A stretch of 17,561 bases of DNA. Origin: Giardia intestinalis. Lineage: Eukaryota. Under the pieces are notes generated by a model, which saw nothing but the letters and a program-made list of their open reading frames with translations, was not told the DNA's origin and searched no databases. A program made the translations under genes and the position numbers. Shown here in pieces: positions 1 through 17,561 of the stretch. Position 1 is the stretch's first letter; every line of letters starts with the position of its first letter. The stretch is taken from the NCBI GenBank assembly GCA_000002435.2, contig AACB03000006.1; one strand, given 5' to 3'.

Positions 1-837
1 AGGCCGTGGGGTCCTCGCAGGCCTTTGTGCACTTCACCGGATTGGTTCCCTCCTTGCGATAGTTGGACTTGCAATCGGTGCATGTAGGGGTTAGGCCGCT
101 GTTACATTGGGAGCACCCCTCGATGCCATTGTCGGCTTACTGTCGCAGGCGAAGCACTTACCAGCAGAGCCGGGTTGTTTCATGAAGAATCCAGGCTTGC
201 ATTTAGTGCACTGATCATTGCCAGCAGCAGAGCATGTAGCACAGTTGGCACCGCAAGCTGTGCATGTATCAGAACCAAAGTATCCGTCGAGGCAAGCTGA
301 GCAGGTCGGCTTGGCTCCGTTCTTCTTACACGTTTTACAATTAGCAATCCCCTTGTCGTTTGCTTCTGTTCCTGTTGTTGTATCACTGCATAATATGCAC
401 TTGGTGCTATCATCACTCAGAAAGTGGGATCCGTCGACGTTATCTGTTGCGCACCCAGCATCATCGACGCAAGTGGTTGTCCCATCCAGCTCTGTCTTCA
501 CCTTCTTATTGTTACAGGCGGTGCACTGGGGCTTGCTGACAGTCGTGTTGTACTCACACGCGGTGCAATCTGCTATACCAGACTCCTTGCATGTCATTGT
601 CATAGGGTCAGCATAAGTGTTTCCAGTGCATCCATCACTATTCACGCATGCATTATCCTTCAGGAACGTATTTCCCTTACAAGAGGTACACTGGGTCGCC
701 GATGTCTCACAGGTCAGACAAGTACCATCACATTTGGTACATGCCTGAGAGTCCATGTAGTACCCATCTTGACACTCGGTGCACGTGGCCGCTCCTGTAT
801 TGCCACCAGGTGCCGTGCACTTGAGACAGTTGGCCAC
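1..837 (-). CDS. VSP-type cysteine-rich surface protein cassette, partial (its N-terminal ~279 codons; the C-terminus runs off the window start)
   Basis: The protein [27 protein letters not shown]... is identical to the N-terminal half of the 10506..12098 protein, and this copy sits at the 11260-bp offset. It is CXXC-rich. The first codon is GTG, not ATG. A 1-nt T-run difference at ~137 (tt here versus ttt at 11397) closes the ORF at 91, either a real frameshift or a read error. Confidence 0.7.
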
Positions 838-989
838 TCCCTTGTTCCATTCGCTCCTGTGGCATCATGACAGAGTATGCACTCCCCACCAGGGGTCACC
901 TTGTCTGCCCCATTCTGGAATATGTACTGACTATCTGTATTACAAGCAGTGCATACTCCATTACTGGCCTGTGTGCATATCACACTCCA

Positions 990-1040
990 CTATCATACTA
1001 TCACCCTCTATCACACATTGTACAGCATTCACTACCCAAG
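990..1040 (-). repeat. Inter-cassette junction element (a CTATCAC/GTGATAG short-repeat block plus the polyA signal)
   Basis: + strand: ctatcatactatcaccctctatcacacattgtacagcattcactacccaag. It includes the rc of AGTGAAT at 1027..1033, 7 nt past the stop of 1041..2660. It ends in an in-frame TAG (cta at 990..992) followed by ..TGG AGT GTG ATA TGC, which starts the next cassette. Confidence 0.75.
1027..1033 (-). promoter_or_regulatory. Putative polyadenylation signal AGTGAAT (Giardia AGTRAAY consensus)
   Basis: attcact on the + strand, 7 nt 3' of the TGA of 1041..2660. The same heptamer recurs at a fixed distance after every cassette stop: 2842..2848, 4753..4759, 6679..6685, 8592..8598, 10406..10412, 12287..12293, 14102..14108 and 16013..16019. 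Confidence 0.7.
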
Positions 1041-2660
1041 TCACGCCTTCCCCCTGCACACGAACCACCAGCAGAGGAAGCCCACGAGGCCCCCCACGAC
1101 AGCGACCACAGCGACGGAGATCCCCGCGATGGCCCCCGTGGAGAGCCCGCTCCTGTTGGCGCCAGAGGACACACAGGAGGCCCCACTGCTGTCTAGGCTG
1201 AAGCCACTGTTGCACTCCTCACACACATCATCCACCACACAGCTCTTGCAATCACCCACAGAGCATGTCACACACCCACTGCCGTCCTTGTTGGGCACCT
1301 TACCACTGTCACAGGCAGTACACACAGCGGCAGCCATACCAACTGTTGTTAGAGCTGCTGGGGCTGTACACTGGGAGCAGCCATGTACCCCCACATATGC
1401 CTTAGCGGTACCTTGAGGATCTACTAGTGTGCCTAGGGGGTTACTACATGCCAACACGGACTGCTGAGCATTGGATGCCCCTGGTACCAGGAAGTACTTA
1501 TTATTCTCATTAACAGCGGTACAGACACCGTTGGCTGCTGTCTTGCACATATGTTGTCCAGGTGGACTCTGAGTGCTATAACAACCACCCATATATAAGA
1601 AATATCCTGTAGTACAAGACTCACAGACATGGTTGTTACAAGTATTACTTTGAGCCTCACTAGCACAGAGACCATCTATAGGATACTTACTGCTATCCCC
1701 ACAGTATGAACAGTAGTGCTTTGTGGTGCCCTGATCATCTATTATCATGGCATCACAAGCACCAGAGGTACCCCCACAGGCAGTATCATCTTCACATACC
1801 TTTGTACATGTAACAGGACTGGTACCACTCTGCTTGCGATAGTTCACCTTACAGTCAGTACACTTGAAAGTACTGGCCTCCATTGTGCATTGGGAGCACC
1901 CCTCGATGCCCCCATTGTTTGTGTCATCGCAGGCGAAGCATTCTCCAGGAGTGCTACTGACCTTCAGGAAGAACCCGGTCTTGCAGGTTTGGCATTTGGT
2001 CTTGTCAGCTTTTTCAGAACATGTGGCACAGTTAGCACCACAGGCCTCACACGTGGCGGCAGGGCCATTTCCTTCTTTGATATACCCTTCGAGGCATTCT
2101 ATGCATTCTGGTTTCTGACTTTGCTGCTTAGTACATGTCTTGCAGCCGGCAATGCCTTTGTTCTTTGGTTCTGAATCCGACGCTGCGGGATCACTGCACA
2201 AACGACACACGTTGTCTTCGGTCATAAAGAGACCGTTATCAGCTCCTTGACACCCGGCGTAGTCTTTTGTCACACAGGTCGAGGTCCCATCAAGGGTCGT
2301 CCTGGGGGTCTTATTGGTCCCGCAGTTGGTGCACCTTGGCTTCCCCGTGGCATCATTATATTCACATGCGGTGCACCCAGCTATGTCGGGATCACATGCC
2401 TTGCAGGTCCAGGTCTTCTTGTCTGCGTACTTATCAGCACCACATTCAGTAGCCTCTACACAAGTGTTACCATCCTTCAGGAACTTCCCCTCAACGCAGG
2501 CGGTACACTGAGTCGGAGTATCAGCTGAGCAAGCAGAGCAGCCGTCTCCGCACTTCACACATGCACTGTCCTTCGTAACGAACCCTGCTTGACACTCTGT
2601 ACACGTGGCCGGTCCGCTAGTGCCCGTGTGGGAGCATTCTGAGCATCCAGCGACTCCCAT
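1041..2660 (-). CDS. Variant-specific surface protein (VSP), 539 aa
   Basis: The ORF is full of CXXC motifs and contains the FLYMGGCY (GGCY) motif. Its C-terminal hydrophobic helix is [30 protein letters not shown], followed by TGA. The rc of AGTGAAT lies 7 nt beyond the stop at 1027..1033. The ATG at 2658..2660 is real, but in-frame VSP-like codons ([44 protein letters not shown]) continue 48 codons upstream to a TAG at 2805..2807 with no ATG. No signal peptide is present. Confidence 0.85.
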   Translation of the reverse strand: MGVAGCSECSHTGTSGPATCTECQAGFVTKDSACVKCGDGCSACSADTPTQCTACVEGKFLKDGNTCVEATECGADKYADKKTWTCKACDPDIAGCTACEYNDATGKPRCTNCGTNKTPRTTLDGTSTCVTKDYAGCQGADNGLFMTEDNVCRLCSDPAASDSEPKNKGIAGCKTCTKQQSQKPECIECLEGYIKEGNGPAATCEACGANCATCSEKADKTKCQTCKTGFFLKVSSTPGECFACDDTNNGGIEGCSQCTMEASTFKCTDCKVNYRKQSGTSPVTCTKVCEDDTACGGTSGACDAMIIDDQGTTKHYCSYCGDSSKYPIDGLCASEAQSNTCNNHVCESCTTGYFLYMGGCYSTQSPPGQHMCKTAANGVCTAVNENNKYFLVPGASNAQQSVLACSNPLGTLVDPQGTAKAYVGVHGCSQCTAPAALTTVGMAAAVCTACDSGKVPNKDGSGCVTCSVGDCKSCVVDDVCEECNSGFSLDSSGASCVSSGANRSGLSTGAIAGISVAVVAVVGGLVGFLCWWFVCRGKA

Positions 2661-2804
2661 GACCCCGTTTCTATCTGTCGTATCAGAGCACAGTATGCAC
2701 TCACTACCCTTCTCTGGTGTTGCAGCCGGGTTCTTGAACAGGCCGTTATCTGCCTTACAAGCAGTGCACAGTCCTCCCTCAGCCTTTGTGCATATCTCAC
2801 TCCA

Positions 2805-2855
2805 CTATCATACTATCACCCTCTATCACACATTGTACAGCATTCACTACCCAAG
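2805..2855 (-). repeat. Inter-cassette junction element
   Basis: It is the same conserved ~51-bp element. The polyA signal rc is at 2842..2848, 7 nt past the stop at 2856. The TAG is at 2805..2807. Confidence 0.75.
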
Positions 2856-4697
2856 TCACGCCTTCCCTCTACATATGAACCACCAGCAGAGGAAGCCGAC
2901 GAGGCCCCCCACGACAGCGATGACAGCGACGGAGATCCCTGCTATGGCACCAGTACTGAGGCCGCTCTTGTTGGTGCCAGAGGACGCACAGGAGGTCCCA
3001 CTGCTGTCAGGGCTGTATCCATCGTTGCACACACAGACAGAGTCGGTGTCAGTGGAGTTGCTGGGGCAGCTATCCACGCATGACTTCCTTCCAGGGCTCA
3101 CCTTCTTACCACTACTGCATGCCTCGCACATGTTGTCCATATCACAGTGCGAGCATCCACTAACGGTACATGGGAAGCACCCGCTCCCAGCCAGGTTGGG
3201 CTTGTTGTTGTTGGTACACGCTGTACACACAGCAGCAGTCATACCAGTCTCAGATGGAGCTGTTGGGGCCGTGCATGCTGAGCAGTTGAGTACCCCAACG
3301 TATGCCTTAGAGGTATCACCAGTGCCTACTAGTGTGCCAAGGGAGTTGCTACATGCTAATACAGACTGATTCTGATTGGTTGCCCCAGGGACTACGAAGT
3401 ACCTATTGTTGGCATTAACAGCAGTACAGACACCGTTGGCTGCTGTCTTGCACATATGTTGTCCAGGTACTGTATCAACCTTGTAACAACCTCCCATATA
3501 CAAGAAGTAGTTGTTAGTGCATTGTGTACATACACCTTGATCACATTGATTATTTGCTTTAGCACTATTACACTTCCCATCTATAGGATACGTATTAGCT
3601 TCTCCACAGTATGAGCAATAATGATGCTCTACACCCTTATCATCAATCACTATTGCATCGCAGGCACCAGAAGTTCCTCCACAGGCAGTATCATCTTCAC
3701 AGATCTTGGTGCATGTGACAGAGCCAGTACTGCCCTCCTTGCGATAGTTAGGCTTACAGTCAGTGCACTTGAAAGCACCGTTGTTAGAGCAGACACTGCA
3801 GCCTTCGCGACCCTTATCGTCTACGCTATCGCATGGGACGCACTTCTTCCCCTGTTGATCTGTAGTAGTTACTAAGAAGTATCCAGTCTTGCAGGTTTCA
3901 CACTTATTTGGATCACCAGCAACAGAGCATGTGGCACAGTTATCACCACACTTGTCTGTACATGTACTAGTACCACTATCAAAGAAGTATCCATCGAGAC
4001 AGGCTGAGCAGGTTGGATTGTCACTTCCTGTTTTCGTACATGTCTTGCAGTTGGCCTTTCCTTCGTTACCAAGAGTTGAATCTGTCACATCACTACAAAG
4101 AGCACACGTTTTGTCCTCCTTCATAAATAAGGCCTCGTCAGCGCCCTCGCATCCTTCAAGCGTCTTCGCCACGCAGGTCGATGTCCCGTCGAGGGCCGTC
4201 CTGGGGGTCTTATTGGTCCCGCAGTTAGTGCACTTCGGCTTCCCCGTGGCCTTGTCGAAGGAGCATGCCGTGCACTCTGCGTGTATCGTACTACATGCCT
4301 TGCATGTTCCCGACTCCGGGTCAGCATAAGTGTTTCCATCGCATCCAGTATCTTGTACACATTGATTACTCTTCAGGTACTTCCCCTCTGGGCACGATGT
4401 ACAATGATTCTGACCACTTCCATCGCAGGTCAGACAAGCTTCATTACATTTGACACATGTCTGAGAGTTCTTGTAGTATCCATCTTGGCACTCTGTACAC
4501 GTGGCAGGTCCTGGACTACTGTCTGACTTGGTACACTGTGCGCAGTTAGCCACCCCTGTATATCCATCTGCCCCATTGACATCATGACAGAGGATGCACT
4601 CACTACCAGGCTTCTGAGGTGTAACTGGGTTCTTGAACAGGCCGTTAGCTGTCTTACAAGCAGTGCACACTCCATCACTGGCTGCTGTGCATATCAC
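2856..4697 (-). CDS. Variant-specific surface protein (VSP), 613 codons. The ORF begins at GTG directly after the junction TAG, and the first in-frame ATG is ~190 codons in
   Basis: It has CXXC repeats, the GGCY motif, and the tail [17 protein letters not shown] followed by TGA. The first codon at 4695..4697 is cac on the + strand, which is GTG on the gene strand. The upstream in-frame sequence reads TAG TGG AGT (..*WS). The polyA signal is at 4753..4759 for the upstream neighbour and 2842..2848 for this gene. Confidence 0.8.
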   Translation of the reverse strand: MICTAASDGVCTACKTANGLFKNPVTPQKPGSECILCHDVNGADGYTGVANCAQCTKSDSSPGPATCTECQDGYYKNSQTCVKCNEACLTCDGSGQNHCTSCPEGKYLKSNQCVQDTGCDGNTYADPESGTCKACSTIHAECTACSFDKATGKPKCTNCGTNKTPRTALDGTSTCVAKTLEGCEGADEALFMKEDKTCALCSDVTDSTLGNEGKANCKTCTKTGSDNPTCSACLDGYFFDSGTSTCTDKCGDNCATCSVAGDPNKCETCKTGYFLVTTTDQQGKKCVPCDSVDDKGREGCSVCSNNGAFKCTDCKPNYRKEGSTGSVTCTKICEDDTACGGTSGACDAIVIDDKGVEHHYCSYCGEANTYPIDGKCNSAKANNQCDQGVCTQCTNNYFLYMGGCYKVDTVPGQHMCKTAANGVCTAVNANNRYFVVPGATNQNQSVLACSNSLGTLVGTGDTSKAYVGVLNCSACTAPTAPSETGMTAAVCTACTNNNKPNLAGSGCFPCTVSGCSHCDMDNMCEACSSGKKVSPGRKSCVDSCPSNSTDTDSVCVCNDGYSPDSSGTSCASSGTNKSGLSTGAIAGISVAVIAVVGGLVGFLCWWFICRGKA

Positions 4698-4703
4698 ACT
4701 CCA

Positions 4704-4766
4704 CTATCACACATTATCACCCACTATCACCTTCTATCACCCATTGTACAGCATTCACTACCCAAG
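4704..4766 (-). repeat. Inter-cassette junction element (a longer variant with extra CTATCAC-like units)
   Basis: + strand: ctatcacacattatcacccactatcaccttctatcacccattgtacagcattcactacccaag. The polyA signal rc is at 4753..4759. The TAG is at 4704..4706. Confidence 0.75.
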
Positions 4767-6497
4767 TCACGCCTTCCCCCTGCACACGAACCACCAGCAG
4801 AGGAAGCCCACGAGGCCCCCCACGACAGCGATGACAGCCACGGAGATCCCCGCGACGGCCCCCGTGGAGAGCCCGCTCCTGTTGGTGCCAGAGGACACAC
4901 ACATGCCATCCCTCGGGACATAGCCCTCCTCGCACTCCCCGCAGACGCCCTCTGCGCTGCACCGCATGCACCTCTCTATGTCACAGACAATGCACTGGGT
5001 GCCGTCCAGGCTGGGTCTCTGGTCTTTATTGGTACATGCCTCACACTTGTTGTCTGCGCTGCAGTGAGAGCAGCCCTGGGCCGGACACACATAGCAGGTG
5101 CTTCCAGCCATGTTGGGCTTCTTATTGTCCTCAGCACACACCTCGCACATCCCGTCGATGGCGCAGCTCTTGCACCCGCCGACCGCACACAGGGTGCACC
5201 CGCTGCCATCCTTGTTGGGCTTCTTCGTCTTGTCGCACGCACTACAGACCGCCGCGGCCATCGCATTGGCGGCTGGCGCCTGCGGGGCCGCGCACGCCGT
5301 GCAGTCTAGCACGCCGACGTACGCCTTGTCGCCCGCGGTCGCTCCCACAGGGTTGCCACAGGCAAGCACGGACTGCTGAGCAGCAGAGTCCCCAGGAATC
5401 TTGAAGTAGCGCCCGACCGGTGTGGTGCAGAACCCACTTGGAGCCGCAGAGCACATGAGGTTGCCAGGAGCCTTCGACACATCATAGCAACCACCCATAT
5501 AGAGGAAGTAGTTGTTGGTGCACCGCGTACATACGCCATCGGCGCAGGTATTACCTGCAAGTGCATTGGTGCACTTCCCATTAATAGGGCCATAGCCGGC
5601 GCCAACACACTTTGAACAGTAAGAGAGCATGCTGCCGTCGTTGCCGACCACGATGGCGTCGCAGGCCCCTGCTGTCCCTCCACATGCAGTCTCATCTTCA
5701 CAGGTCTTTGTACATGTGAGGTCGCTAGGTTCTCCGCTGGGTCTGTAGTTGGGCTTACATTCAGTGCATTTGAGGGACCCCACGCCGCCTGTGCACTCGG
5801 CACAGCCTGGAATCCCACTTGTCTCGTCATCACAGAGAACGCATGTCTTAGGCGGGCCATCCTTAAGGAAGTACCCCGGCATGCATCTTGTACATGTGTT
5901 GATTTGACCCGCTGTTCCGCACTCTGCGCAGTTTCCTGTGCAGGCCTCGCAGGCGTTTCCGTTGACTTTATACCCGTCGACACAAGCCTCGCAGGTGCCT
6001 TTTGCGGTGCACAGCTTGCAGTTCTGGACTCCGCCCTTACCATTGTCGCCGCACTGCACGCACTTCGAGGCGTCGTAGAAGTGCGTCTTGCCCACTTTGC
6101 ACTCGGCCTCATCAACACAGGTCGTTGTCCCATCCAGCTCGTCTCTGACCGTCTTACTACCGCAGTCGGTGCACTTCGGCTTTCCCGTGGCGTCGTCGTA
6201 TGCACACGCGGTGCATCCTTGTATCTCACTGCAGGCCTTACAGGTCCAGGTCTTCTTGTCCGCATAGTTACCATTGTCACATCCACCAGCATCTACACAA
6301 GTGTTACCATCCTTCAGGTACTTCCCCTCAACGCAGGCGGTACACTGAGTCGGAGTATCAGCTGAGCAAGCAGAGCAGCCGTCTCCGCACTTCACACATG
6401 CACTGTCCTTCGTAACGAACCCTGCTTGACACTCTGTACACGTGGCCGGTCCGCTAGTGCCCGTGTGGGAGCATTCTGAGCATCCAGCGACTCCCAT
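4767..6497 (-). CDS. Variant-specific surface protein (VSP), 576 aa
   Basis: Its N-terminal 58 aa are identical to those of the 1041..2660 protein and the middle is divergent. It carries the CRGKA tail. The same 48-codon ATG-less in-frame extension continues upstream to 6642..6644. The polyA signal is at 4753..4759. Confidence 0.85.
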   Translation of the reverse strand: MGVAGCSECSHTGTSGPATCTECQAGFVTKDSACVKCGDGCSACSADTPTQCTACVEGKYLKDGNTCVDAGGCDNGNYADKKTWTCKACSEIQGCTACAYDDATGKPKCTDCGSKTVRDELDGTTTCVDEAECKVGKTHFYDASKCVQCGDNGKGGVQNCKLCTAKGTCEACVDGYKVNGNACEACTGNCAECGTAGQINTCTRCMPGYFLKDGPPKTCVLCDDETSGIPGCAECTGGVGSLKCTECKPNYRPSGEPSDLTCTKTCEDETACGGTAGACDAIVVGNDGSMLSYCSKCVGAGYGPINGKCTNALAGNTCADGVCTRCTNNYFLYMGGCYDVSKAPGNLMCSAAPSGFCTTPVGRYFKIPGDSAAQQSVLACGNPVGATAGDKAYVGVLDCTACAAPQAPAANAMAAAVCSACDKTKKPNKDGSGCTLCAVGGCKSCAIDGMCEVCAEDNKKPNMAGSTCYVCPAQGCSHCSADNKCEACTNKDQRPSLDGTQCIVCDIERCMRCSAEGVCGECEEGYVPRDGMCVSSGTNRSGLSTGAVAGISVAVIAVVGGLVGFLCWWFVCRGKA

Positions 6498-6641
6498 GAC
6501 CCCGTTTCTATCTGTCGTATCAGAGCACAGTATGCACTCACTACCCTTCTCTGGTGTTGCATCAGGGTTCTTGAACAGGCCGTTAGCTGTCTTACAAGCA
6601 GTGCACAGTCCTCCCTCAGCCTTTGTGCATATCTCACTCCA

Positions 6642-6692
6642 CTATCATACTATCACACACTATCACCCATTGTATAGCATTCACTACCCAAG
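6642..6692 (-). repeat. Inter-cassette junction element
   Basis: + strand: ctatcatactatcacacactatcacccattgtatagcattcactacccaag. The polyA signal rc is at 6679..6685. Confidence 0.75.
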
Positions 6693-8540
6693 TCACGCCT
6701 TCCCCCTGCACACGAACCACCAGCAGAGGAAGCCCACGAGGCCCCCCACGACAGCGATGACAGCCACGGAGATCCCTGCTATGGCACCAGTACTGAGGCC
6801 GCTTCTGTTGCCCCCGCTGGGCTTGGTGGACACGCACGCCTCACCCTCCAGCCTGTAGTCGTCCCCACACTGGCCGCACTTGTTCTCCTCGCTGCACCTG
6901 ACGCACCCGTCGATATTGCAGGCGATGCACTTCGTTCCGTCTGTGTTCGGCCTCTGGTCTTTACTGGTACAGGCCTCGCACTTACCGCCTGCTCCACAGT
7001 GCGAGCATCCGTCAACGGTACATGCGAAGCACCCGCTCCCAGCCAGGTTGGGCTTGTTGTTGTTGGTACACGCTGTACACACAGCAGCAGTCATACCAGT
7101 CTCAGACAGAGCTGTTGGGGCCGTGCATGCCGAACAGCCATCTACCCCCACATATGCCTTAGAGGTATCACCAGTGCCTACTAGTGTGCCAAGGGAGTTG
7201 CTACATGCCAATACAGACTGATTCTGATTGGTTGCCCCAGGGACTATGAAGTACCTATTGTTGGCATTAACAGCGGTACAGACACCGTTGGCTGCTGTCT
7301 TGCACATATGTTGTCCAGGTACTGTATCAACCTTGTAACAACCTCCCATATACAAGAAGTAGTTGTTAGTGCATTGTGTACATACACCTTGATCACATTG
7401 ATTATTTGCTTTAGCACTATTACACTTCCCATCTATAGGATACGTATTAGCTTCTCCACAGTATGAGCAATAATGATGCTCTACACCCTTATCATCAATC
7501 ACTATTGCATCGCAGGCACCAGAAGTTCCTCCACAGGCAGTATCATCTTCACAGATCTTGGTGCATGTGACAGAGCCAGTACTGCCCTCCTTGCGATAGT
7601 TAGGCTTACAGTCAGTGCACTTGAAAGCACCGTTGTTAGAGCAGACACTGCAGCCTTCGCGACCCTTATCGTCTACGCTATCGCATGGGACGCACTTCTT
7701 CCCCTGTTGATCTGTAGTAGTTACTAAGAAGTATCCAGTCTTGCAGGTTTCACACTTATTTGGATCACCAGCAACAGAGCATGTGGCACAGTTATCACCA
7801 CACTTGTCTGTACATGTACTAGTACCACTATCAAAGAAGTATCCATCGAGACAGGCTGAGCAGGTTGGATTGTCACTTCCTGTTTTCGTACATGTCTTGC
7901 AGTTGGCCTTTCCTTCGTTACCAAGAGTTGAATCTGTCACATCACTACAAAGAGCACACGTTTTGTCCTCCTTCATAAATAAGGCCTCGTCAGCGCCCTC
8001 GCATCCTTCAAGCGTCTTCGCCACGCAGGTCGATGTCCCGTCGAGGGCCGTCCTGGGGGTCTTATTGGTCCCGCAGTTAGTGCACTTCGGCTTCCCCGTG
8101 GCCTTGTCGAAGGAGCATGCCGTGCACTCTGCGTGTATCGTACTACATGCCTTGCATGTTCCCGACTCCGGGTCAGCATACTTATCATTACCACAGCTAT
8201 CAGTACATTGATTCCCATTGAGGTACTTCCCCTCTGGACACGATGTGCACTGGGTCGCCGATGTCTCACAGGTGGCACAGTTCCCCTCGCATGGCTTACA
8301 AAGCTTGTTGTTTAGGAAGTACCCCTCTTGACAGGTATTACACGTGGCAGGTCCTGCATTCCCTGGTGCCGTACACTTGAGACAGTTGGCCACTCCCGTA
8401 TATCCATTCGCTCCCTTGATATCAGAGCACAAGATGCACTCCCCACCAGGAGTCACCTTGTCTGCCCTGTTCTGGAATATGTACTTGTTATCTGTCTTAC
8501 AAGCAGTGCACAGTCCATTACTGGCCTTTGTACATATCAC
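6693..8540 (-). CDS. Variant-specific surface protein (VSP), 615 codons, a mosaic paralogue
   Basis: The central ~350 aa (…CKACSTIHAECTACSFDKATGKPKCTNCGTNKTPRTALDGTSTCVAK… through …AYVGV) are essentially identical to 2856..4697. The C-terminal ~100 aa match the C-terminus of 10506..12098. The N-terminus is unique. It carries the CRGKA tail. The first codon is GTG, preceded by an in-frame TAG at 8547..8549. Confidence 0.8.
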   Translation of the reverse strand: MICTKASNGLCTACKTDNKYIFQNRADKVTPGGECILCSDIKGANGYTGVANCLKCTAPGNAGPATCNTCQEGYFLNNKLCKPCEGNCATCETSATQCTSCPEGKYLNGNQCTDSCGNDKYADPESGTCKACSTIHAECTACSFDKATGKPKCTNCGTNKTPRTALDGTSTCVAKTLEGCEGADEALFMKEDKTCALCSDVTDSTLGNEGKANCKTCTKTGSDNPTCSACLDGYFFDSGTSTCTDKCGDNCATCSVAGDPNKCETCKTGYFLVTTTDQQGKKCVPCDSVDDKGREGCSVCSNNGAFKCTDCKPNYRKEGSTGSVTCTKICEDDTACGGTSGACDAIVIDDKGVEHHYCSYCGEANTYPIDGKCNSAKANNQCDQGVCTQCTNNYFLYMGGCYKVDTVPGQHMCKTAANGVCTAVNANNRYFIVPGATNQNQSVLACSNSLGTLVGTGDTSKAYVGVDGCSACTAPTALSETGMTAAVCTACTNNNKPNLAGSGCFACTVDGCSHCGAGGKCEACTSKDQRPNTDGTKCIACNIDGCVRCSEENKCGQCGDDYRLEGEACVSTKPSGGNRSGLSTGAIAGISVAVIAVVGGLVGFLCWWFVCRGKA

Positions 8541-10224
8541 ACTCCACTATCACACTATCACCCTCTATACCATTATCACACATTGTATAGCATTCACTAC
8601 CTGAGTCATGCCTTCCCTCTACATATGAACCACCAGCAGAGGAAGCCCACGAGGCCCCCACGACGACGACCACAGCGACGGAGATCCCCGCGATGGCCCC
8701 CGTGGAGAGCCCGCTCCTGTTGGTACTCATAGACACACAGGAGGCCCCACTGCTGTCTATGCTGAAACCACTGTTGCACTCTTCACATATATTATCCATC
8801 ACACAGCTCTTACAATCACCCACAGAGCATGTCACACACCCACTGCCGTCCTTGTTGGGCACCTTACCACTGTCACAGGAGGTACACACAGCGGCAGTCA
8901 TACCACCATCAGACAGAGCTGCTGGGGCCGTACATGCCGAACAGCCATCTACCCCCACATATGCCTTAGCGGTACCTTGAGGATCTACTAGTGTGCCTAG
9001 GGGGTTACTACATGCCAACACGGACTGCTGAGCATTGGATGCCCCTGGTACCAGGAAGTACTTATTATTCTCATTAACAGCGGTACAGACACCGTTGGCT
9101 GCTGTCTTGCACATATGTTGTCCAGGTGGACTCTGAGTGCTATAACAACCACCCATATATAAGAAATATCCTGTAGTACAAGACTCACAGACATGGTTGT
9201 TACAAGTATTACTTTGAGCCTCACTAGCACAGAGACCATCTATAGGATACTTACTGCTATCCCCACAGTATGAACAGTAGTGCTTTGTGGTGCCCTGATC
9301 ATCTATTATCATGGCATCACAAGCACCAGAGGTACCCCCACAGGCAGTATCATCTTCACATACCTTTGTACATGTAACAGGACTGGTACCACTCTGCTTG
9401 CGATAGTTCACCTTACAGTCAGTACACTTGAAAGTACTGGCCTCCATTGTGCATTGGGAGCACCCCTCGATGCCCCCATTGTTTGTGTCATCGCAGGCGA
9501 AGCATTCTCCAGGAGTGCTACTGACCTTCAGGAAGAACCCGGTCTTGCAGGTTTGGCATTTGGTCTTGTCAGCTTTTTCAGAACATGTGGCACAGTTAGC
9601 ACCACAGGCCTCACACGTGGCGGCAGGGCCATTTCCTTCTTTGATATACCCTTCGAGGCATTCTATGCATTCTGGTTTCTGACTTTGCTGCTTAGTACAT
9701 GTCTTGCAGCCGGCAATGCCTTTGTTCTTTGGTTCTGAATCCGACGCTGCGGGATCACTGCACAAACGACACACGTTGTCTTCGGTCATAAAGAGACCGT
9801 TATCAGCTCCTTGACACCCGGCGTAGTCTTTTGTCACACAGGTCGAGGTCCCATCAAGGGTCGTCCTGGGGGTCTTATTGGTCCCGCAGTTAGTGCACCT
9901 TGGCTTCCCCGTGGCATCATTATATTCACATGCGGTGCACCCAGCTATGTCGGGATCACATGCCTTGCAGGTCCAGGTCTTCTTGTCTGCGTACTTATCA
10001 GCACCACATTCAGTAGCCTCTACACAAGTGTTACCATCCTTCAGGAACTTCCCCTCAACGCAGGCGGTACACTGAGTCGGAGTATCAGCTGAGCAAGCAG
10101 AGCAGCCGTCTCCGCACTTCACACATGCACTGTCCTTCGTAACGAACCCTGCTTGACACTCTGTACACGTGGCCGGTCCGCTAGTGCCCGTGTGGGAGCA
10201 TTCTGAGCATCCAGCGACTCCCAT
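8518..10224 (-). CDS. VSP paralogue of 1041..2660 with an apparent frameshift in the transmembrane/tail coding region. The expected CRGKA stop is at 8606..8608
   Basis: The protein is identical to the 539-aa VSP up to ...AKAYVGV and then divergent. On the + strand at ~8656..8662 a run of 5 C replaces the 6 C seen in every other copy, a G6 run in the codons VGGLVG. The ORF therefore reads through the FLCWWFICRGKA frame and ends at 8518. Restoring 1 nt would give ...FLCWWFICRGKA with TGA at 8606. Confidence 0.7.
   Translation of the reverse strand: MGVAGCSECSHTGTSGPATCTECQAGFVTKDSACVKCGDGCSACSADTPTQCTACVEGKFLKDGNTCVEATECGADKYADKKTWTCKACDPDIAGCTACEYNDATGKPRCTNCGTNKTPRTTLDGTSTCVTKDYAGCQGADNGLFMTEDNVCRLCSDPAASDSEPKNKGIAGCKTCTKQQSQKPECIECLEGYIKEGNGPAATCEACGANCATCSEKADKTKCQTCKTGFFLKVSSTPGECFACDDTNNGGIEGCSQCTMEASTFKCTDCKVNYRKQSGTSPVTCTKVCEDDTACGGTSGACDAMIIDDQGTTKHYCSYCGDSSKYPIDGLCASEAQSNTCNNHVCESCTTGYFLYMGGCYSTQSPPGQHMCKTAANGVCTAVNENNKYFLVPGASNAQQSVLACSNPLGTLVDPQGTAKAYVGVDGCSACTAPAALSDGGMTAAVCTSCDSGKVPNKDGSGCVTCSVGDCKSCVMDNICEECNSGFSIDSSGASCVSMSTNRSGLSTGAIAGISVAVVVVVGASWASSAGGSYVEGRHDSGSECYTMCDNGIEGDSVIVECDMYKGQ
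8547..8605 (-). repeat. Inter-cassette junction element (a variant)
   Basis: + strand: ctatcacactatcaccctctataccattatcacacattgtatagcattcactacctgag. The polyA signal rc is at 8592..8598. The stop of the upstream cassette would be 8606..8608. Confidence 0.7.
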
Positions 10225-10368
10225 GACCCCGTTTCTATCTGTCGTATCAGAGCACAGTATGCACTCACTACCCTTCTCTGGTGTTGCAGCCGGGTTCTTG
10301 AACAGGCCGTTATCTGCCTTACAAGCAGTGCACAGTCCTCCCTCAGCCTTTGTGCATATCTCACTCCA

Positions 10369-10419
10369 CTATCATACTATCACCCTCTATCACACATTGT
10401 ACAGCATTCACTACCCAAG
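10369..10419 (-). repeat. Inter-cassette junction element
   Basis: Same as 2805..2855. The polyA signal rc is at 10406..10412. The expected stop of the 10506..12098 cassette is 10420..10422. Confidence 0.75.
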
Positions 10420-10505
10420 TCACGCCTTCCCCCTGCACACGAACCACCAGCAGAGGAAGCCCACGAGGCCCCCCACGACAGCGATGACAGCCACGGAGAT
10501 CCCTG

Positions 10506-12098
10506 CTATGGCACCAGTACTGAGGCCGCTTCTGTTGCCCCGCTGGGCTTGGTGGACACGCACGCCTCACCCTCCAGCCTGTAGTCGTCCCCACACTGGC
10601 CGCACTTGTTCTCCTCGCTGCACCTGACGCACCCGTCGATATTGCAGGCGATGCACTTCGTTCCGTCTGTGTTCGGCCTCTGGTCTTTACTGGTACAGGC
10701 CTCGCACTTATCGCCTGCTCCACAGTGCGAGCATCCGTCAACGGTACATGCGAAGCACCCGCTCCCAGCCAGGTTGGGCTTGTTGTTGTTGGTACACGCT
10801 GTGCACGTGGCGGCAGTCATGCCACCATCAGATGGAGCTGCTGGGGCTGTACACTGTGAACAGTTGAGTACCCCCACGTATGCCTTAGCAGTATCACCAG
10901 TGCCTACTAGTGTGCCTAGGGGGTTCTCGCAGGCCAGGACAGACTGATCAGTATTGGATGCCCCCGGGACCAGGAAGTACCGGCCGTTCTCGCTGGGGGC
11001 GGTGCACCTCCCTCCCTCGGCAGTCTTGCACATGTGGCTGCCAGGAGCCTTCGACACATCATAGCAGCCGCCCATGTACAGGAAGAACCCGGCAGCACAC
11101 CGGGTGCAGACGCCATTGGCACAGGTGTTGTCACCCTTAGTTCCTGTGCAGATCCCATCGATGGGGAACGTGGCGGGGTCTCCGCACAGCGAGCAGTACT
11201 GGGAGAACGCCCCGGCGCTGTCAACGACGACCGCCCCGCAGGCCCCAGACGTCCCCCCGCAGGCCGTGGGGTCCTCGCAGGCCTTTGTGCACTTCACCGG
11301 ATTGGTTCCCTCCTTGCGATAGTTGGACTTGCAATCGGTGCATGTAGGGGTTAGGCCGCTGTTACATTGGGAGCACCCCTCGATGCCATTGTCGGCTTTA
11401 CTGTCGCAGGCGAAGCACTTACCAGCAGAGCCGGGTTGTTTCATGAAGAATCCAGGCTTGCATTTAGTGCACTGATCATTGCCAGCAGCAGAGCATGTAG
11501 CACAGTTGGCACCGCAAGCTGTGCATGTATCAGAACCAAAGTATCCGTCGAGGCAAGCTGAGCAGGTCGGCTTGGCTCCGTTCTTCTTACACGTTTTACA
11601 ATTAGCAATCCCCTTGTCGTTTGCTTCTGTTCCTGTTGTTGTATCACTGCATAATATGCACTTGGTGCTATCATCACTCAGAAAGTGGGATCCGTCGACG
11701 TTATCTGTTGCGCACCCAGCATCATCGACGCAAGTGGTTGTCCCATCCAGCTCTGTCTTCACCTTCTTATTGTTACAGGCGGTGCACTGGGGCTTGCTGA
11801 CAGTCGTGTTGTACTCACACGCGGTGCAATCTGCTATACCAGACTCCTTGCATGTCATTGTCATAGGGTCAGCATAAGTGTTTCCAGTGCATCCATCACT
11901 ATTCACGCATGCATTATCCTTCAGGAACGTATTTCCCTTACAAGAGGTACACTGGGTCGCCGATGTCTCACAGGTCAGACAAGTACCATCACATTTGGTA
12001 CATGCCTGAGAGTCCATGTAGTACCCATCTTGACACTCGGTGCACGTGGCCGCTCCTGTATTGCCACCAGGTGCCGTGCACTTGAGACAGTTGGCCAC
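10506..12098 (-). CDS. VSP paralogue ([12 protein letters not shown]...) with a frameshift just before the transmembrane domain. The expected end is at 10420
   Basis: It has CXXC repeats, the GGCY motif, and C-terminal modules shared with 6693..8540. At 10538..10541 there are 4 C where 5 C stand at the homologous 6811..6815. The shift gives ...[14 protein letters not shown] instead of [17 protein letters not shown]...CRGKA. The first codon at 12096..12098 is GTG. An additional N-terminal frameshift is present in the upstream piece 12099..12243. Confidence 0.7.
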
Positions 12099-12249
12099 TC
12101 CCTTGTTCCATTCGCTCCTGTGGCATCATGACAGAGATGCACTCCCCACCAGGGGTCACCTTGTCTGCCCCATTCTGGAATATGTACTGACTATCTGTAT
12201 TACAAGCAGTGCATACTCCATTACTGGCCTGTGTGCATATCACACTCCA

Positions 12250-12300
12250 CTATCATACTATCACCCTCTATCACACATTGTACAGCATTCACTACCCAAG
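12250..12300 (-). repeat. Inter-cassette junction element
   Basis: A copy of 990..1040 at the +11260 offset. The polyA signal rc is at 12287..12293. Confidence 0.75.
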
Positions 12301-13920
12301 TCACGCCTTCCCCCTGCACACGAACCACCAGCAGAGGAAGCCCACGAGGCCCCCCACGACAGCGACCACAGCGACGGAGATCCCCGCGATGGCCCCCGTG
12401 GAGAGCCCGCTCCTGTTGGCGCCAGAGGACACACAGGAGGCCCCACTGCTGTCTAGGCTGAAGCCACTGTTGCACTCCTCACACACATCATCCACCACAC
12501 AGCTCTTGCAATCACCCACAGAGCATGTCACACACCCACTGCCGTCCTTGTTGGGCACCTTACCACTGTCACAGGCAGTACACACAGCGGCAGCCATACC
12601 AACTGTTGTTAGAGCTGCTGGGGCTGTACACTGGGAGCAGCCATGTACCCCCACATATGCCTTAGCGGTACCTTGAGGATCTACTAGTGTGCCTAGGGGG
12701 TTACTACATGCCAACACGGACTGCTGAGCATTGGATGCCCCTGGTACCAGGAAGTACTTATTATTCTCATTAACAGCGGTACAGACACCGTTGGCTGCTG
12801 TCTTGCACATATGTTGTCCAGGTGGACTCTGAGTGCTATAACAACCACCCATATATAAGAAATATCCTGTAGTACAAGACTCACAGACATGGTTGTTACA
12901 AGTATTACTTTGAGCCTCACTAGCACAGAGACCATCTATAGGATACTTACTGCTATCCCCACAGTATGAACAGTAGTGCTTTGTGGTGCCCTGATCATCT
13001 ATTATCATGGCATCACAAGCACCAGAGGTACCCCCACAGGCAGTATCATCTTCACATACCTTTGTACATGTAACAGGACTGGTACCACTCTGCTTGCGAT
13101 AGTTCACCTTACAGTCAGTACACTTGAAAGTACTGGCCTCCATTGTGCATTGGGAGCACCCCTCGATGCCCCCATTGTTTGTGTCATCGCAGGCGAAGCA
13201 TTCTCCAGGAGTGCTACTGACCTTCAGGAAGAACCCGGTCTTGCAGGTTTGGCATTTGGTCTTGTCAGCTTTTTCAGAACATGTGGCACAGTTAGCACCA
13301 CAGGCCTCACACGTGGCGGCAGGGCCATTTCCTTCTTTGATATACCCTTCGAGGCATTCTATGCATTCTGGTTTCTGACTTTGCTGCTTAGTACATGTCT
13401 TGCAGCCGGCAATGCCTTTGTTCTTTGGTTCTGAATCCGACGCTGCGGGATCACTGCACAAACGACACACGTTGTCTTCGGTCATAAAGAGACCGTTATC
13501 AGCTCCTTGACACCCGGCGTAGTCTTTTGTCACACAGGTCGAGGTCCCATCAAGGGTCGTCCTGGGGGTCTTATTGGTCCCGCAGTTGGTGCACCTTGGC
13601 TTCCCCGTGGCATCATTATATTCACATGCGGTGCACCCAGCTATGTCGGGATCACATGCCTTGCAGGTCCAGGTCTTCTTGTCTGCGTACTTATCAGCAC
13701 CACATTCAGTAGCCTCTACACAAGTGTTACCATCCTTCAGGAACTTCCCCTCAACGCAGGCGGTACACTGAGTCGGAGTATCAGCTGAGCAAGCAGAGCA
13801 GCCGTCTCCGCACTTCACACATGCACTGTCCTTCGTAACGAACCCTGCTTGACACTCTGTACACGTGGCCGGTCCGCTAGTGCCCGTGTGGGAGCATTCT
13901 GAGCATCCAGCGACTCCCAT
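12301..13920 (-). CDS. Variant-specific surface protein (VSP), 539 aa, a second copy of 1041..2660
   Basis: The protein is identical to the 1041..2660 product and lies at the +11260 offset. It has the CRGKA tail. The polyA signal is at 12287..12293. Confidence 0.85.
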   Translation of the reverse strand: MGVAGCSECSHTGTSGPATCTECQAGFVTKDSACVKCGDGCSACSADTPTQCTACVEGKFLKDGNTCVEATECGADKYADKKTWTCKACDPDIAGCTACEYNDATGKPRCTNCGTNKTPRTTLDGTSTCVTKDYAGCQGADNGLFMTEDNVCRLCSDPAASDSEPKNKGIAGCKTCTKQQSQKPECIECLEGYIKEGNGPAATCEACGANCATCSEKADKTKCQTCKTGFFLKVSSTPGECFACDDTNNGGIEGCSQCTMEASTFKCTDCKVNYRKQSGTSPVTCTKVCEDDTACGGTSGACDAMIIDDQGTTKHYCSYCGDSSKYPIDGLCASEAQSNTCNNHVCESCTTGYFLYMGGCYSTQSPPGQHMCKTAANGVCTAVNENNKYFLVPGASNAQQSVLACSNPLGTLVDPQGTAKAYVGVHGCSQCTAPAALTTVGMAAAVCTACDSGKVPNKDGSGCVTCSVGDCKSCVVDDVCEECNSGFSLDSSGASCVSSGANRSGLSTGAIAGISVAVVAVVGGLVGFLCWWFVCRGKA

Positions 13921-14064
13921 GACCCCGTTTCTATCTGTCGTATCAGAGCACAGTATGCACTCACTACCCTTCTCTGGTGTTGCAGCCGGGTTCTTGAACA
14001 GGCCGTTATCTGCCTTACAAGCAGTGCACAGTCCTCCCTCAGCCTTTGTGCATATCTCACTCCA

Positions 14065-14115
14065 CTATCATACTATCACCCTCTATCACACATTGTACAG
14101 CATTCACTACCCAAG
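14065..14115 (-). repeat. Inter-cassette junction element
   Basis: A copy of 2805..2855. The polyA signal rc is at 14102..14108. Confidence 0.75.
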
Positions 14116-15957: not shown

Positions 15958-15963
15958 ACTCCA

Positions 15964-16026
15964 CTATCACACATTATCACCCACTATCACCTTCTATCAC
16001 CCATTGTACAGCATTCACTACCCAAG
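15964..16026 (-). repeat. Inter-cassette junction element (long variant)
   Basis: A copy of 4704..4766. The polyA signal rc is at 16013..16019. Confidence 0.75.
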
Positions 16027-17561
16027 TCACGCCTTCCCCCTGCACACGAACCACCAGCAGAGGAAGCCCACGAGGCCCCCCACGACAGCGATGACAGCCA
16101 CGGAGATCCCCGCGACGGCCCCGTGGAGAGCCCGCTCCTGTTGGTGCCAGAGGACACACACATGCCATCCCTCGGGACATAGCCCTCCTCGCACTCCCCG
16201 CAGACGCCCTCTGCGCTGCACCGCATGCACCTCTCTATGTCACAGACAATGCACTGGGTGCCGTCCAGGCTGGGTCTCTGGTCTTTATTGGTACATGCCT
16301 CACACTTGTTGTCTGCGCTGCAGTGAGAGCAGCCCTGGGCCGGACACACATAGCAGGTGCTTCCAGCCATGTTGGGCTTCTTATTGTCCTCAGCACACAC
16401 CTCGCACATCCCGTCGATGGCGCAGCTCTTGCACCCGCGACCGCACACAGGTGCACCCGCTGCCATCCTGTGGGCTTCTTCGTCTTGTCGCACGCACTAC
16501 AGACCGCCGCGGCCATCGCATTGGCGGGCTGGCGCCTGCGGGCCGCGCACGCCCGTGCATCTAGCACGCCGACGTACGCCTTGTCGCCCGCGGTCGCTCC
16601 CACAGGGTTGCCACAGGCAGCACGGACTGCTGAGCAGCAAGTCCCCAGAATCTGAAGTACGCCCGACGGTGTGGTGCAGAACCCACTGGAGCCGCAGAGC
16701 ACATGAGGTTGCCAGAGCCTTCGACACATCATAGCAACCACCCATATAGAGGAAGTAGTTGTTGGTGCACCGCGTACATACGCCATCGGCGCAGGTATTA
16801 CCTGCAAGTGCATTGTGCACTTTCCCATTAATAGGCCCATAGCCGGCGCCAACACACTTTGAACAGTAAGAGAGCATGCTGCCGTCGTGCCGACCACGAT
16901 GGCGTCGCAGGCCCCTGCTGTCCCCACATGCAGTCTCATCTTCACAGGTCTTTGTACATGTGAGGTCGCTAGGTTCTCCGCTGGTCTGTAGTTGGGCTTA
17001 CATTCAGTGCATTTGAGGGACCCCACGCCGCCTGTGCACTCGGCACAGCCTGGAATCCCACTTGTCTCGTCATCACAGAGAAACGCATGTCTTAGGCGGG
17101 CCATCCTTAAGGAAGTACCCGGCATGCATCTTGTACATGTGTTGATTTGACCCGCTGTTCCGCACTCTGCGCAGTTTCCTGTGCAGGCCTCGCAGGCGTT
17201 TCCGTTGACTTTATTACCCGTCGACACAAGCCTCGCAGGTGCCTTTTGCGGTGCACAGCTTGCAGTTCTGGACTCCGCCCTTACCATTGTCGCCGCACTG
17301 CACGCACTTGAGGCGTCGTAGAAGTGCGTCTTGCCCACTTTGCACTCGGCCTCATCAACACAGGTCGTTGTCCCATCCAGCTCGTCTCTGACCGTTTACT
17401 ACCGCAGTCGGTGCACTTCGGCTTTCCCGTGGCGTCGTCGTATGCACACGCCGGTGCATCCTTGTATCTCACTGCAGGCCTTACAGGTCCAGGTCTTCTT
17501 GTCCGCATAGTTACCTTGTCACATCCACCAGCATCTACACAAGTGTTACCATCCTTCAGGT
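16027..17561 (-). pseudogene. Degraded or low-quality second copy of the 4767..6497 VSP, partial at the window end
   Basis: 16027..16230 encodes an intact ...[24 protein letters not shown] tail. Upstream of that, the copy differs from 4975..6301 almost only by many 1-3 nt deletions, with no obvious substitutions. For example, 16441..16500 versus 5181..5244 lacks c, g and tgt. The reading frame hops between three frames in ORFs 16235..17338, 16497..16877 and 17281..17508. Confidence 0.6.

What the first reader, a model, noticed from the sequence alone, without database searches (positions are those of the whole stretch)
2661..2855. Cassettes have no ATG or signal peptide at their 5' edge, so the array looks promoterless and leaderless
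Reading the gene frame upstream of each ORF start gives VSP-like codons with no ATG, ending at TGA..TAG in the junction. Upstream of 2660 the frame reads VGNRDTTDSCLICESGKEPTAAPNKFLGNDAKCATCLGGEAKTCIESW*. The 2856..4697, 6693..8540 and 10506..12098 ORFs start on GTG immediately after TAG-TGG-AGT. In 2856..4697 the first in-frame ATG is ~190 codons in. Secreted VSPs need an N-terminal signal peptide, and Giardia initiates at the first AUG just downstream of an AT-rich initiator. None of these cassettes can do that. They look like 5'-truncated, silent VSP cassettes. They could be a recombination reservoir behind an expressed head copy beyond 17561, comparable to vls, pilS or VSG pseudogene archives, or they could simply be dead copies made by unequal crossing-over. 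Recombination-based VSP switching has not been established in Giardia, so this is worth testing.
Basis: partly seen in the sequence, partly recalled or inferred. Interest (0 to 1): 0.75.

Follow-up and report, generated by a model that had tools for sequence, protein, structure and literature searches.

The report
Start-less Giardia VSP pseudogene array
The window is a head-to-tail array of Giardia surface-antigen (VSP) gene copies that all lack their start codon, signal peptide and first ~100 codons. This arrangement is real, but it has been described since 2010 as a "linear array" of VSP pseudogenes, together with the same recombination-reservoir hypothesis.

Summary
On the minus strand there are 10 head-to-tail VSP cassettes: six distinct units in an 11,260-bp super-repeat. 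They are joined by nine near-identical spacers of 51-63 nt. Each spacer reads CRGKA-TGA, poly(A) signal AGTGAA, GTGATAG mini-repeats, TGA-TAG, then TGG AGT G[A/T]G ATA TGC.

No junction has an ATG that opens the cassette frame. The VSP initiator PyAATGTT is absent from the whole window, and there is no hydrophobic leader or Giardia intron motif. Cassette residue 1 aligns to residue 103-105 of intact WB VSPs, so the signal peptide and a conserved N-terminal module are both missing.

The sequence comes from G. intestinalis assemblage A, WB-like (100% to VSP S7, AAN52102).

The cassettes are sharply mosaic. They share exact blocks of 905 and 942 nt next to 50-70% identity. Cassettes E and B share exact runs of 287 aa and 142 aa with intact, signal-peptide-bearing VSPs. 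Four cassettes are fully open, and dN/dS is 0.2-0.5.

Silence, a head copy and real-time switching could not be tested. Already known; low interest.

The parts
2805..2855 (-). 51-nt inter-cassette spacer of the reported junction (A to B). It holds the poly(A) signal AGTGAA (2848-2843), an in-frame ATG (2843-2841) followed by TGA TAG ... TGA TAG, GTGATAG mini-repeats and the terminal TGATAG (2810-2805).
2661..2804 (-). First 48 codons of cassette B (WSEICTKAEGGLCTACK...DRNGV). They are VSP-like and contain no ATG. They align to residues ~105-152 of intact VSPs.
1041..2804 (-). Cassette B, copy 1: 587 codons plus stop, fully open, ending in TM-CRGKA. Its internal-ATG ORF (1041-2660) is 100% identical to GenBank AAN52102 'VSP S7'.
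2856..4703 (-). Cassette A, copy 1: 615 codons plus stop, open, ending in CRGKA. The first in-frame ATG is codon 193.
4704..4766 (-). 63-nt spacer (E to A) with four GTGATA units.
4767..6641 (-). Cassette E: 624 codons plus stop, open. Residues 309-595 are identical to residues 433-719 of the intact VSP P0028.
6642..6692 (-). 51-nt spacer (D to E).
6693..8546 (-). Cassette D: 617 codons plus stop, open. It shares a 905-nt exact block with A (7276-8180 = 3424-4328), and its 3' ~380 nt are identical to C apart from single-base differences.
8547..8605 (-). 59-nt spacer (B' to D).
8606..10368 (-). Cassette B': 97.7% identical to B. Its transmembrane (TM) region is frameshifted by a G6-to-G5 change in a homopolymer.
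10369..10419 (-). 51-nt spacer (C to B').
10420..12249 (-). Cassette C, copy 2. It starts WSVICTQASNG, has a frameshift near 12110-12136 and a G5-to-G4 frameshift near 10538. The CRGKA tail is present in another frame.
12250..12300 (-). 51-nt spacer (B to C), second copy.
12301..14064 (-). Cassette B, copy 2 (identical to 1041-2804).
14065..14115 (-). 51-nt spacer (A to B), second copy.
14116..15963 (-). Cassette A, copy 2 (identical to 2856-4703).
15964..16026 (-). 63-nt spacer (E' to A), second copy.
16027..17561 (-). Cassette E', a partial second copy of E that runs off the window. It differs from E only by ~25 single-base indels and essentially no substitutions, which looks like low-coverage long-read error at a contig end.
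990..1040 (-). 51-nt spacer (B to C), first copy.
1..989 (-). Cassette C, copy 1: 5' part only, running off the window start.

Best explanation
This is a 'linear array' of VSP pseudogenes (psiVSPs) from Giardia intestinalis assemblage A (WB-like).

The repeat unit runs from an internal VSP position (codon ~103-105, just after the first GGCY motif) through the transmembrane segment, the CRGKA tail and the poly(A) signal. A 51-63-nt spacer of GTGATAG mini-repeats follows. Six such units (A, B, C, B', D, E) form an 11,260-bp higher-order repeat, seen about 1.5 times in the window.

Shown: each cassette lacks the VSP initiator, a usable ATG, the signal peptide and the conserved N-terminal module, and stop codons sit in the spacer. 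The cassettes therefore cannot make a surface VSP on their own.

[quoted passage not shown] Their divergence carries the mark of protein-level selection.

Inferred: the array arose by tandem duplication or unequal crossing-over of a 5'-truncated unit, and it is transcriptionally silent. Segmental gene conversion uses two conserved flanks: 5' WSEICT...NGLFKNP and 3' TM-CRGKA-poly(A) signal. This conversion keeps the cassettes open and makes the array a sequence reservoir for the expressible VSP repertoire on an evolutionary timescale.

Not shown: any role in switching during an infection. Switching is currently attributed to epigenetic or RNAi control.
For: Identity:
- Pfam PF03302 VSP, E 1e-37 to 1e-43.
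- CRGKA tails and 25-32 CXXC motifs per cassette.
- 100% identity to VSP S7 AAN52102, which clusters with ATCC 50803 proteins.

Truncation:
- Cassette residue 1 aligns to residue 103-105 of P0002, P0003, P0017, P0024 and P0028. These all begin with a hydrophobic leader (KD 2.2-2.5) and a conserved ~100-aa module.

No start or promoter:
- 0 PyAATGTT in the window, against TAATGTT at the ATG of control L006.
- Junction ATGs are dead ends.
- No A/T-rich run and no intron motif in the spacers.

Conserved junction:
- 9 of 9 junctions in the window, plus an independent ENA metagenome contig, L005.

Recombination:
- A and D are 100% identical over 905 nt but 55-73% upstream of the block.
- B and E are 95-100% identical for the first 300 columns, then 44-71%.
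- C and D are 96-100% identical at the 3' end.
- E shares a 287-aa exact run with intact P0028, and B a 142-aa exact run with intact P0002. The flanks are 34-66% identical.

Coding-type divergence:
- dN/dS 0.19-0.54, with 0 stops in 587-624 codons for A, B, D and E.

Literature:
- Adam 2010 PMC2996952: linear arrays, mean 60-bp spacers, no Inr in downstream members.
- Xu 2020 PMC7641422: psiVSP arrays, gene conversion, not transcribed in G. muris.
Against: - Silence is inferred from sequence only. No RNA data were available here.
- The direction and timing of exchange with intact VSPs are unknown. That evidence is at protein level only, because the DNA of the WB chromosomal genes could not be fetched.
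- C and B' carry frameshifts, as decaying copies would. Two of these are in G homopolymers and could be sequencing errors.
- The low dN/dS could have been inherited from functional ancestors before capture into the array.
- The super-repeat copies differ by indels only, so part of the 17.5-kb layout could be an assembly artefact.
Confidence: 0.82

Rival explanations
1. The array is an inert by-product. The cassettes are dead copies left by unequal crossing-over, and they recombine only because they are repeats. They contribute nothing to the expressed repertoire (the 'discarded vsp genes' alternative of Adam et al. 2010).
For: - Frameshifts in C (two sites) and B'.
- No start, promoter or leader.
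- The within-array mosaics need nothing more than homologous recombination among tandem repeats.
- This alternative is stated explicitly in PMC2996952.
Against: - Four of six distinct cassettes are open over 587-624 codons, although they differ by 30-40% at nucleotide level and dS is ~1-2.
- Exact runs of 287 aa and 142 aa are shared with intact signal-peptide-bearing VSPs and flanked by 34-66% identity. This shows recent exchange across loci, not only within the array.
- The same junction is retained in an independent sample.
Confidence: 0.25
2. The cassettes are expressed by an unconventional route. Candidates are read-through or polycistronic transcription from a head gene, splicing to a leader exon that supplies ATG and signal peptide, or initiation at internal ATGs.
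For: - Older WB annotations called internal-ATG or spacer-ATG ORFs as VSPs: P0001 (S7), P0090, and P0121, P0004 and P0009, which begin MLYSDSDS.
- The conserved poly(A) signal after each cassette would let each unit end a transcript.
Against: - No Giardia intron 3' motif ([AC]CTRAC[AC]CACAG) anywhere, and no relaxed match at any junction.
- Two to four in-frame stops lie between the only upstream ATG and the cassette.
- Internal-ATG products have no hydrophobic leader (KD 0.7 against 2.0-3.1).
- Such ORFs were re-annotated as psiVSPs (PMC7000408; bioRxiv 2022.03.07.483299).
- psiVSPs are not transcribed in G. muris.
Confidence: 0.03
3. The array works at the RNA level. Sense or antisense transcripts of start-less cassettes would feed the RNAi/small-RNA pathway that limits VSP expression to one gene.
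For: - Published models hold that many vsp genes are transcribed and degraded through Dicer/RdRP/Argonaute, and most VSP loci show more antisense than sense reads (review PMC8957917; bioRxiv 2022.03.07.483299).
- The cassettes share long exact blocks with intact VSPs, so small RNAs derived from them could target those genes.
Against: - No evidence of transcription from this window.
- No Rfam family, tRNA or other RNA gene detected.
- psiVSPs are essentially non-transcribed in G. muris.
- The open reading frames and low dN/dS are not needed for an RNA role.
Confidence: 0.06
4. Part of the picture is an assembly artefact. The second copy of the 11.26-kb unit and its frameshifts (16027-17561) would come from a long-read contig that overlaps itself, or from a poorly polished contig end, not from real sequence.
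For: The two copies (1-6301 and 11261-17561) differ by 31 gap openings and essentially no substitutions. The differences are concentrated in the last ~1.4 kb of the window.
Against: - This cannot explain the start-less junctions. They occur nine times between different cassette pairs and again in an independent short-read metagenome contig.
- They also match published descriptions.
Confidence: 0.4

Closest known systems
G. intestinalis WB vsp 'linear arrays' / psiVSP arrays (Adam et al. 2010, PMC2996952; Xu et al. 2020, PMC7000408)
   Same: Head-to-tail VSP units, spacers of ~60 bp, downstream members without Inr, proper start codon or signal peptide, conserved CRGKA 3' end and poly(A) signal, found mostly on short or unplaced contigs, with related members inside one array. 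The window meets all of these, and one cassette is 100% identical to a WB-type VSP entry.
   Different: Nothing in kind. Details I have not seen stated in the passages I read:
- a breakpoint at residue 103-105 (WSEICT), where other WB arrays begin ~10 codons earlier at LLFMGGCY;
- paired in-frame TGA-TAG stops in the spacer;
- a six-unit, 11.26-kb higher-order repeat.
G. muris telomere-adjacent psiVSP arrays (Xu et al. 2020, PMC7641422)
   Same: Arrays of signal-peptide-less VSP copies. Phylogeny suggests recombination or gene conversion with intact VSPs, and the arrays were proposed as a reservoir.
   Different: The G. muris arrays are almost all telomere-adjacent, have a GCRGK tail, and were shown to be non-transcribed. 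Chromosomal position and transcription of this window are unknown.
Trypanosoma brucei subtelomeric VSG pseudogene arrays and mosaic VSG formation
   Same: A large silent archive of incomplete antigen genes that shares mosaic segments with expressible genes.
   Different: In T. brucei, segmental conversion into a defined telomeric expression site is shown experimentally. In Giardia no expression site or real-time conversion is known, and VSP choice is attributed to RNAi or epigenetic control.
Borrelia burgdorferi vls silent cassettes / Neisseria pilS
   Same: Promoterless, 5'-truncated cassettes in tandem, bounded by conserved sequence that could guide segmental gene conversion.
   Different: These are bacterial systems with a single adjacent or defined expression locus (vlsE, pilE) and demonstrated unidirectional conversion. 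No equivalent locus is identified here, so this is an analogy of architecture only.

Membership tests
Giardia VSP (functional variant-specific surface protein gene) | Cys-rich ectodomain with many CXXC motifs and a GGCY motif; Pfam PF03302 above gathering score | tested here: met
   PF03302 at 127-147 bits against a cut-off of 31.4. 25-32 CXXC motifs and 12-13% Cys per cassette. [10 protein letters not shown] is present.
Giardia VSP (functional variant-specific surface protein gene) | C-terminal transmembrane segment followed by CRGKA and a stop | tested here: met
   A, B, D and E end ...[11 protein letters not shown][VI]CRGKA*. C and B' reach it only after a 1-nt frameshift.
Giardia VSP (functional variant-specific surface protein gene) | Poly(A) signal AGTRAA a few nt after the stop | tested here: met
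   AGTGAA lies 7 nt after the stop codon at all nine junctions.
Giardia VSP (functional variant-specific surface protein gene) | ATG start with an N-terminal signal peptide | tested here: not met
   No ATG opens the cassette frame at any junction. Internal-ATG products have KD 0.7, against 2.0-3.1 for intact VSPs. The cassettes begin at residue 103-105 of intact VSPs.
Giardia VSP (functional variant-specific surface protein gene) | Initiator element PyAatgTT at the start codon | tested here: not met
   0 matches on either strand of the window. The control intact VSP in L006 has TAATGTT at its ATG.
psiVSP linear array (Adam 2010; Xu 2020) | Two or more (more than three in Xu's definition) adjacent head-to-tail VSP sequences | tested here: met
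   10 cassettes, all on the minus strand.
psiVSP linear array (Adam 2010; Xu 2020) | Very short intervening regions (mean ~60 bp) | tested here: met
   Spacers of 51, 59 and 63 nt.
psiVSP linear array (Adam 2010; Xu 2020) | Downstream members lack Inr, proper start codon and signal peptide | tested here: met
psiVSP linear array (Adam 2010; Xu 2020) | First member often a complete VSP with upstream non-coding DNA and an Inr | not testable with these tools
   Both window ends fall inside cassettes. The DNA of WB chromosomal genes could not be fetched.
Recombination-donor antigen archive (vls / pilS / VSG-pseudogene type) | Silent, promoterless, truncated cassettes bounded by conserved sequence | tested here: inconclusive
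   Sequence-level criteria are met. Conserved 5' (WSEICT..NGLFKNP) and 3' (TM-CRGKA-poly(A) signal) flanks are present. Silence was not measured.
Recombination-donor antigen archive (vls / pilS / VSG-pseudogene type) | Mosaic segments shared between archive cassettes and expressible genes | tested here: met
   E shares a 287-aa exact run with P0028 and B a 142-aa exact run with P0002. Both proteins have signal peptides, and the flanks are 34-66% identical. This is protein level only.
Recombination-donor antigen archive (vls / pilS / VSG-pseudogene type) | Demonstrated conversion from the archive into an expression locus during growth or infection | not testable with these tools
   This needs longitudinal long-read data. 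None was found in the literature searched.

The most novel reading that the evidence does not exclude
The array is an active donor archive. Segmental gene conversion from these start-less cassettes into Inr-bearing VSP genes would occur at mitotic timescales, during culture or infection, and would create new expressed mosaic VSPs. This would add a DNA-recombination layer to Giardia antigenic variation alongside RNAi or epigenetic switching. The exact blocks of 287 aa and 142 aa shared with intact VSPs, set against dS of ~1-2 between cassettes, show that exchange has been very recent. They do not show its rate or direction.
Probability: 0.12. Interest if true: 0.7.

Novelty: already known. Interest (0 to 1): 0.2.

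Why it matters
VSP arrays make up a large share of the Giardia antigen gene space: 208 psiVSPs against 133 intact VSPs in WB. Whether they are junk or a diversity reservoir bears on how the parasite sustains chronic infection, and on VSP-based vaccine design. This window is a clean textbook example, with a precise breakpoint, a conserved stop-laden spacer and sharp mosaics with intact genes. It could serve as a test locus. The phenomenon and the hypothesis have been in print since 2010, so the finding does not open a new question.

Tried and rejected
1. Mis-framed ATG plus leader. I scanned every ATG in all three frames from -120 to +200 nt at all nine junctions. None opens the cassette frame and no hydrophobic leader appears.

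2. Spliced leader or intron. There is no Giardia intron 3' motif in the window. The only relaxed matches lie inside cassettes, not at junctions.

3. Hidden RNA genes. Rfam at gathering thresholds and ARAGORN found nothing.

4. Head-of-array search and nucleotide-level mosaics. The look-up of encoding contigs had no record for WB chromosomal proteins P0002, P0017, P0024, P0028 or P0115. I could therefore not check for a head copy or confirm the mosaics at DNA level.

5. Metagenome scan for the 20-nt junction core. It gave three chance hits with no similarity to the window.

6. Vestigial start site in the spacer. Each spacer holds a CAATGTG, CAATGGG or TAATGTG heptamer that might be a decayed Inr/start. 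It is only one base from the consensus, but similar heptamers also occur inside cassettes, so I left this as an aside.

7. dN/dS as a test of present-day constraint. I rejected it as decisive, because low values could be inherited from functional donors.

Full report
**What is there.** All long VSP-like frames lie on the minus strand. Read 5' to 3' on that strand, the window holds ten head-to-tail cassettes: E' (partial), A, B, C, B', D, E, A, B, C (partial). The six distinct units are 1911, 1815, 1885, 1814, 1909 and 1926 nt long. They sum to 11,260 nt, which is the period of a super-repeat seen about 1.5 times. Four cassettes score 127-147 bits against Pfam PF03302 (Giardia VSP; cut-off 31.4). 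They carry 25-32 CXXC motifs and 12-13% Cys, and they end in the transmembrane segment plus CRGKA.

**The observation.** At 2661-2855 the minus strand reads CRGKA-TGA (2858-2856), then a 51-nt spacer. The spacer is CTTGGGT-AGTGAA-TGCTGTACAATGTGTGATAGAGGGTGATAGTA-TGATAG. After it comes TGG AGT GAG ATA TGC..., which translates as WSEICTKAEGGLCTACK..., for 48 codons before the first ATG at 2660.

All nine junctions share this architecture, with spacers of 51, 59 or 63 nt. I scanned every ATG in all three frames from -120 to +200 nt of each junction.
- The in-frame ATG that overlaps the poly(A) signal is followed by two TGA-TAG doublets (MLYNV**RVIV**WSE).
- All other ATGs give ORFs of 21 codons or fewer, or out-of-frame ORFs of up to 81 codons.
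- The first ATG that leads into a long ORF is codon 48 (B, B', E) or codon 190-193 (D, A). Its product has no hydrophobic leader: Kyte-Doolittle (KD) hydropathy, best 10-residue window, is 0.7, against 2.0-3.1 for real VSP N-termini.

The published VSP initiator PyAatgTT has no match on either strand of the 17.5-kb window. An intact VSP fetched as a control (L006) has TAATGTT exactly at its ATG. The spacers are 57-61% A+T with no A/T run, and no Giardia intron motif lies at any junction.

The 10506-12098 ORF does not begin at the junction, because cassette C begins at 12249 and is frameshifted. 'GTG starts' are a bacterial convention with no meaning in Giardia.

**What is missing.** Cassette B's internal-ATG ORF is 100% identical to GenBank AAN52102 (VSP S7, G. 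intestinalis), and it clusters with two ATCC 50803 proteins. The source is therefore WB-like assemblage A.

Global alignment places cassette residue 1 at residue 103-105 of five intact WB VSPs: P0002, P0003, P0017, P0024 and P0028. Each of these starts with a leader such as MFQLIPLFVASALMA or MLLIALHLVTSILA, followed by a conserved module ending GDGYFLFMGGCYKT. Two of them even contain 'LWSEVCT' or 'QWSEICT' at that point. The cassettes therefore lack about 102-104 residues, not just a signal peptide.

Other WB arrays begin about 10 codons earlier (MLYSDSDS...LLFMGGCY...SEICT). About 22 of the 122 proteins on hand (120 listed homologues plus two cluster members), probably assemblage B, begin at a third recurrent point, VNDPAGVSIDSLCRP. 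An independent ENA metagenome contig (L005) carries the same spacer followed by a start-less cassette, so the structure is not an assembly quirk of this contig.

**Signs of recombination.** Identity between cassettes switches abruptly.
- A and D share a 905-nt exact block (3424-4328 = 7276-8180) but are 55-73% identical upstream of it.
- B and E are 95-100% identical over the first ~300 columns, then 44-71%.
- C and D are 96-100% identical over the last ~500 columns.
- B and B' share exact blocks of 942 and 523 nt.

The same pattern links the array to intact genes elsewhere. Residues 309-595 of E equal residues 433-719 of P0028, a 287-aa exact run. Residues 44-185 of B equal residues 148-289 of P0002, a 142-aa exact run. 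The flanks are 34-66% identical. Both partners carry signal peptides and come from megabase WB contigs.

Between cassettes dN/dS is 0.19-0.54, with synonymous sites near saturation. A, B, D and E have no stop codon in 587-624 codons, where the chance probability is about 5e-13 per frame. C and B' are frameshifted, and two of those shifts are single-G changes in G5/G6 runs inside otherwise identical blocks. The two super-repeat copies differ by 31 gap openings and essentially no substitutions, mostly in the last 1.4 kb. This looks like long-read error at a contig end.

**How it most likely works.**

Shown:
- The cassettes cannot produce a secreted VSP by themselves.
- They recombine among themselves and share very recent segments with intact VSPs.

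Inferred:
- A 5'-truncated unit was amplified by unequal crossing-over.
- The array is silent.
- Segmental gene conversion, guided by the conserved 5' (WSEICT...NGLFKNP) and 3' (TM-CRGKA-poly(A) signal) flanks, makes the array a reservoir for the expressible repertoire over evolutionary time.

Not shown: any part in switching within an infection.

**Comparison with what is known.** Adam et al. 2010 (PMC2996952) described these 'linear arrays' as follows.
- More than half of WB vsp genes sit in them.
- Spacers average 60 bp.
- No downstream member has the Inr.
- They lie mostly on short contigs.

Xu et al. [quoted passage not shown] The G. muris genome paper (PMC7641422) reported psiVSP arrays, evidence for gene conversion with intact VSPs, and no transcription of psiVSPs. 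A 2022 preprint says the unassembled WB contigs contain only VSP pseudogenes. A 2025 population study found VSPs enriched among gene-conversion tracts (PMC12669663). Reviews still place VSP switching in RNAi or epigenetic control (PMC8957917). I found no paper showing real-time recombinational switching.

**Verdict.** Both the observation and the hypothesis are already published, so the finding counts as already known. The open part, whether arrays donate sequence on an infection timescale, is not advanced by this window alone. Interest 0.2.

Noticed in passing
window 1-6301 vs 11261-17561: There is an 11,260-bp higher-order repeat of six cassettes. The two copies differ by 31 single-base indels and essentially no substitutions, concentrated in 16118-17561. 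This looks like unpolished long-read error at a contig end, or a contig that overlaps itself.
   Followed up: partly
window ~10538 (cassette C) and ~8660 (cassette B'): The C-terminal frameshifts are single-G losses in G5 and G6 homopolymers inside blocks that are otherwise identical to D and B. Real slippage and sequencing error cannot be told apart without reads.
   Followed up: partly
spacers, e.g. window 4704-4766 and 2805-2855 (minus strand): Each spacer is built from 2-4 copies of an 8-12-nt GTGATAG unit. The cassette's own first bases (AGT GTG ATA TGC) look like one more copy. This suggests that the spacer grew by slippage at the truncation breakpoint.
   Followed up: no
spacers, e.g. 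window 2835, 14095, 10399, 8585 (minus strand): Every spacer has a heptamer one base from the VSP initiator consensus PyAATGTT (CAATGTG, CAATGGG or TAATGTG). Its ATG is out of frame and opens a 5-codon ORF. It could be a decayed start site, but similar heptamers also occur inside cassettes.
   Followed up: partly
homologue set (proteins P0037, P0040, P0053, P0071 etc.): About 22 of the 122 proteins on hand (120 listed homologues plus two cluster members), annotated 'partial' G. duodenalis and probably assemblage B, begin at the same point, VNDPAGVSIDSLCRP (~residue 45-50 of an intact VSP). Other lineages therefore have their own recurrent array breakpoint.
   Followed up: no
P0115 (378 aa, 'High cysteine protein', 4.02-Mb WB contig) vs window 4767-6497: A protein annotated as a high-cysteine protein is identical over 375 aa to the internal-ATG ORF of cassette E. 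An E-like cassette therefore sits on a WB chromosome under a non-VSP name.
   Followed up: no
L001:9900-11974: This is a stand-alone VSP in an ENA assembly, flanked by kinase and ankyrin genes. It encodes a leader-like FLLIPLFAVSTIA upstream of the called GTG start, but no ATG is visible there. It may be another start-less VSP outside an array.
   Followed up: no
window plus strand, e.g. 2605-3369, 13865-14629, 4584-5309: Long antisense ORFs (up to 254 aa) lie opposite the VSP cassettes. They are probably a side-effect of codon and composition bias. I did not examine them.
   Followed up: no
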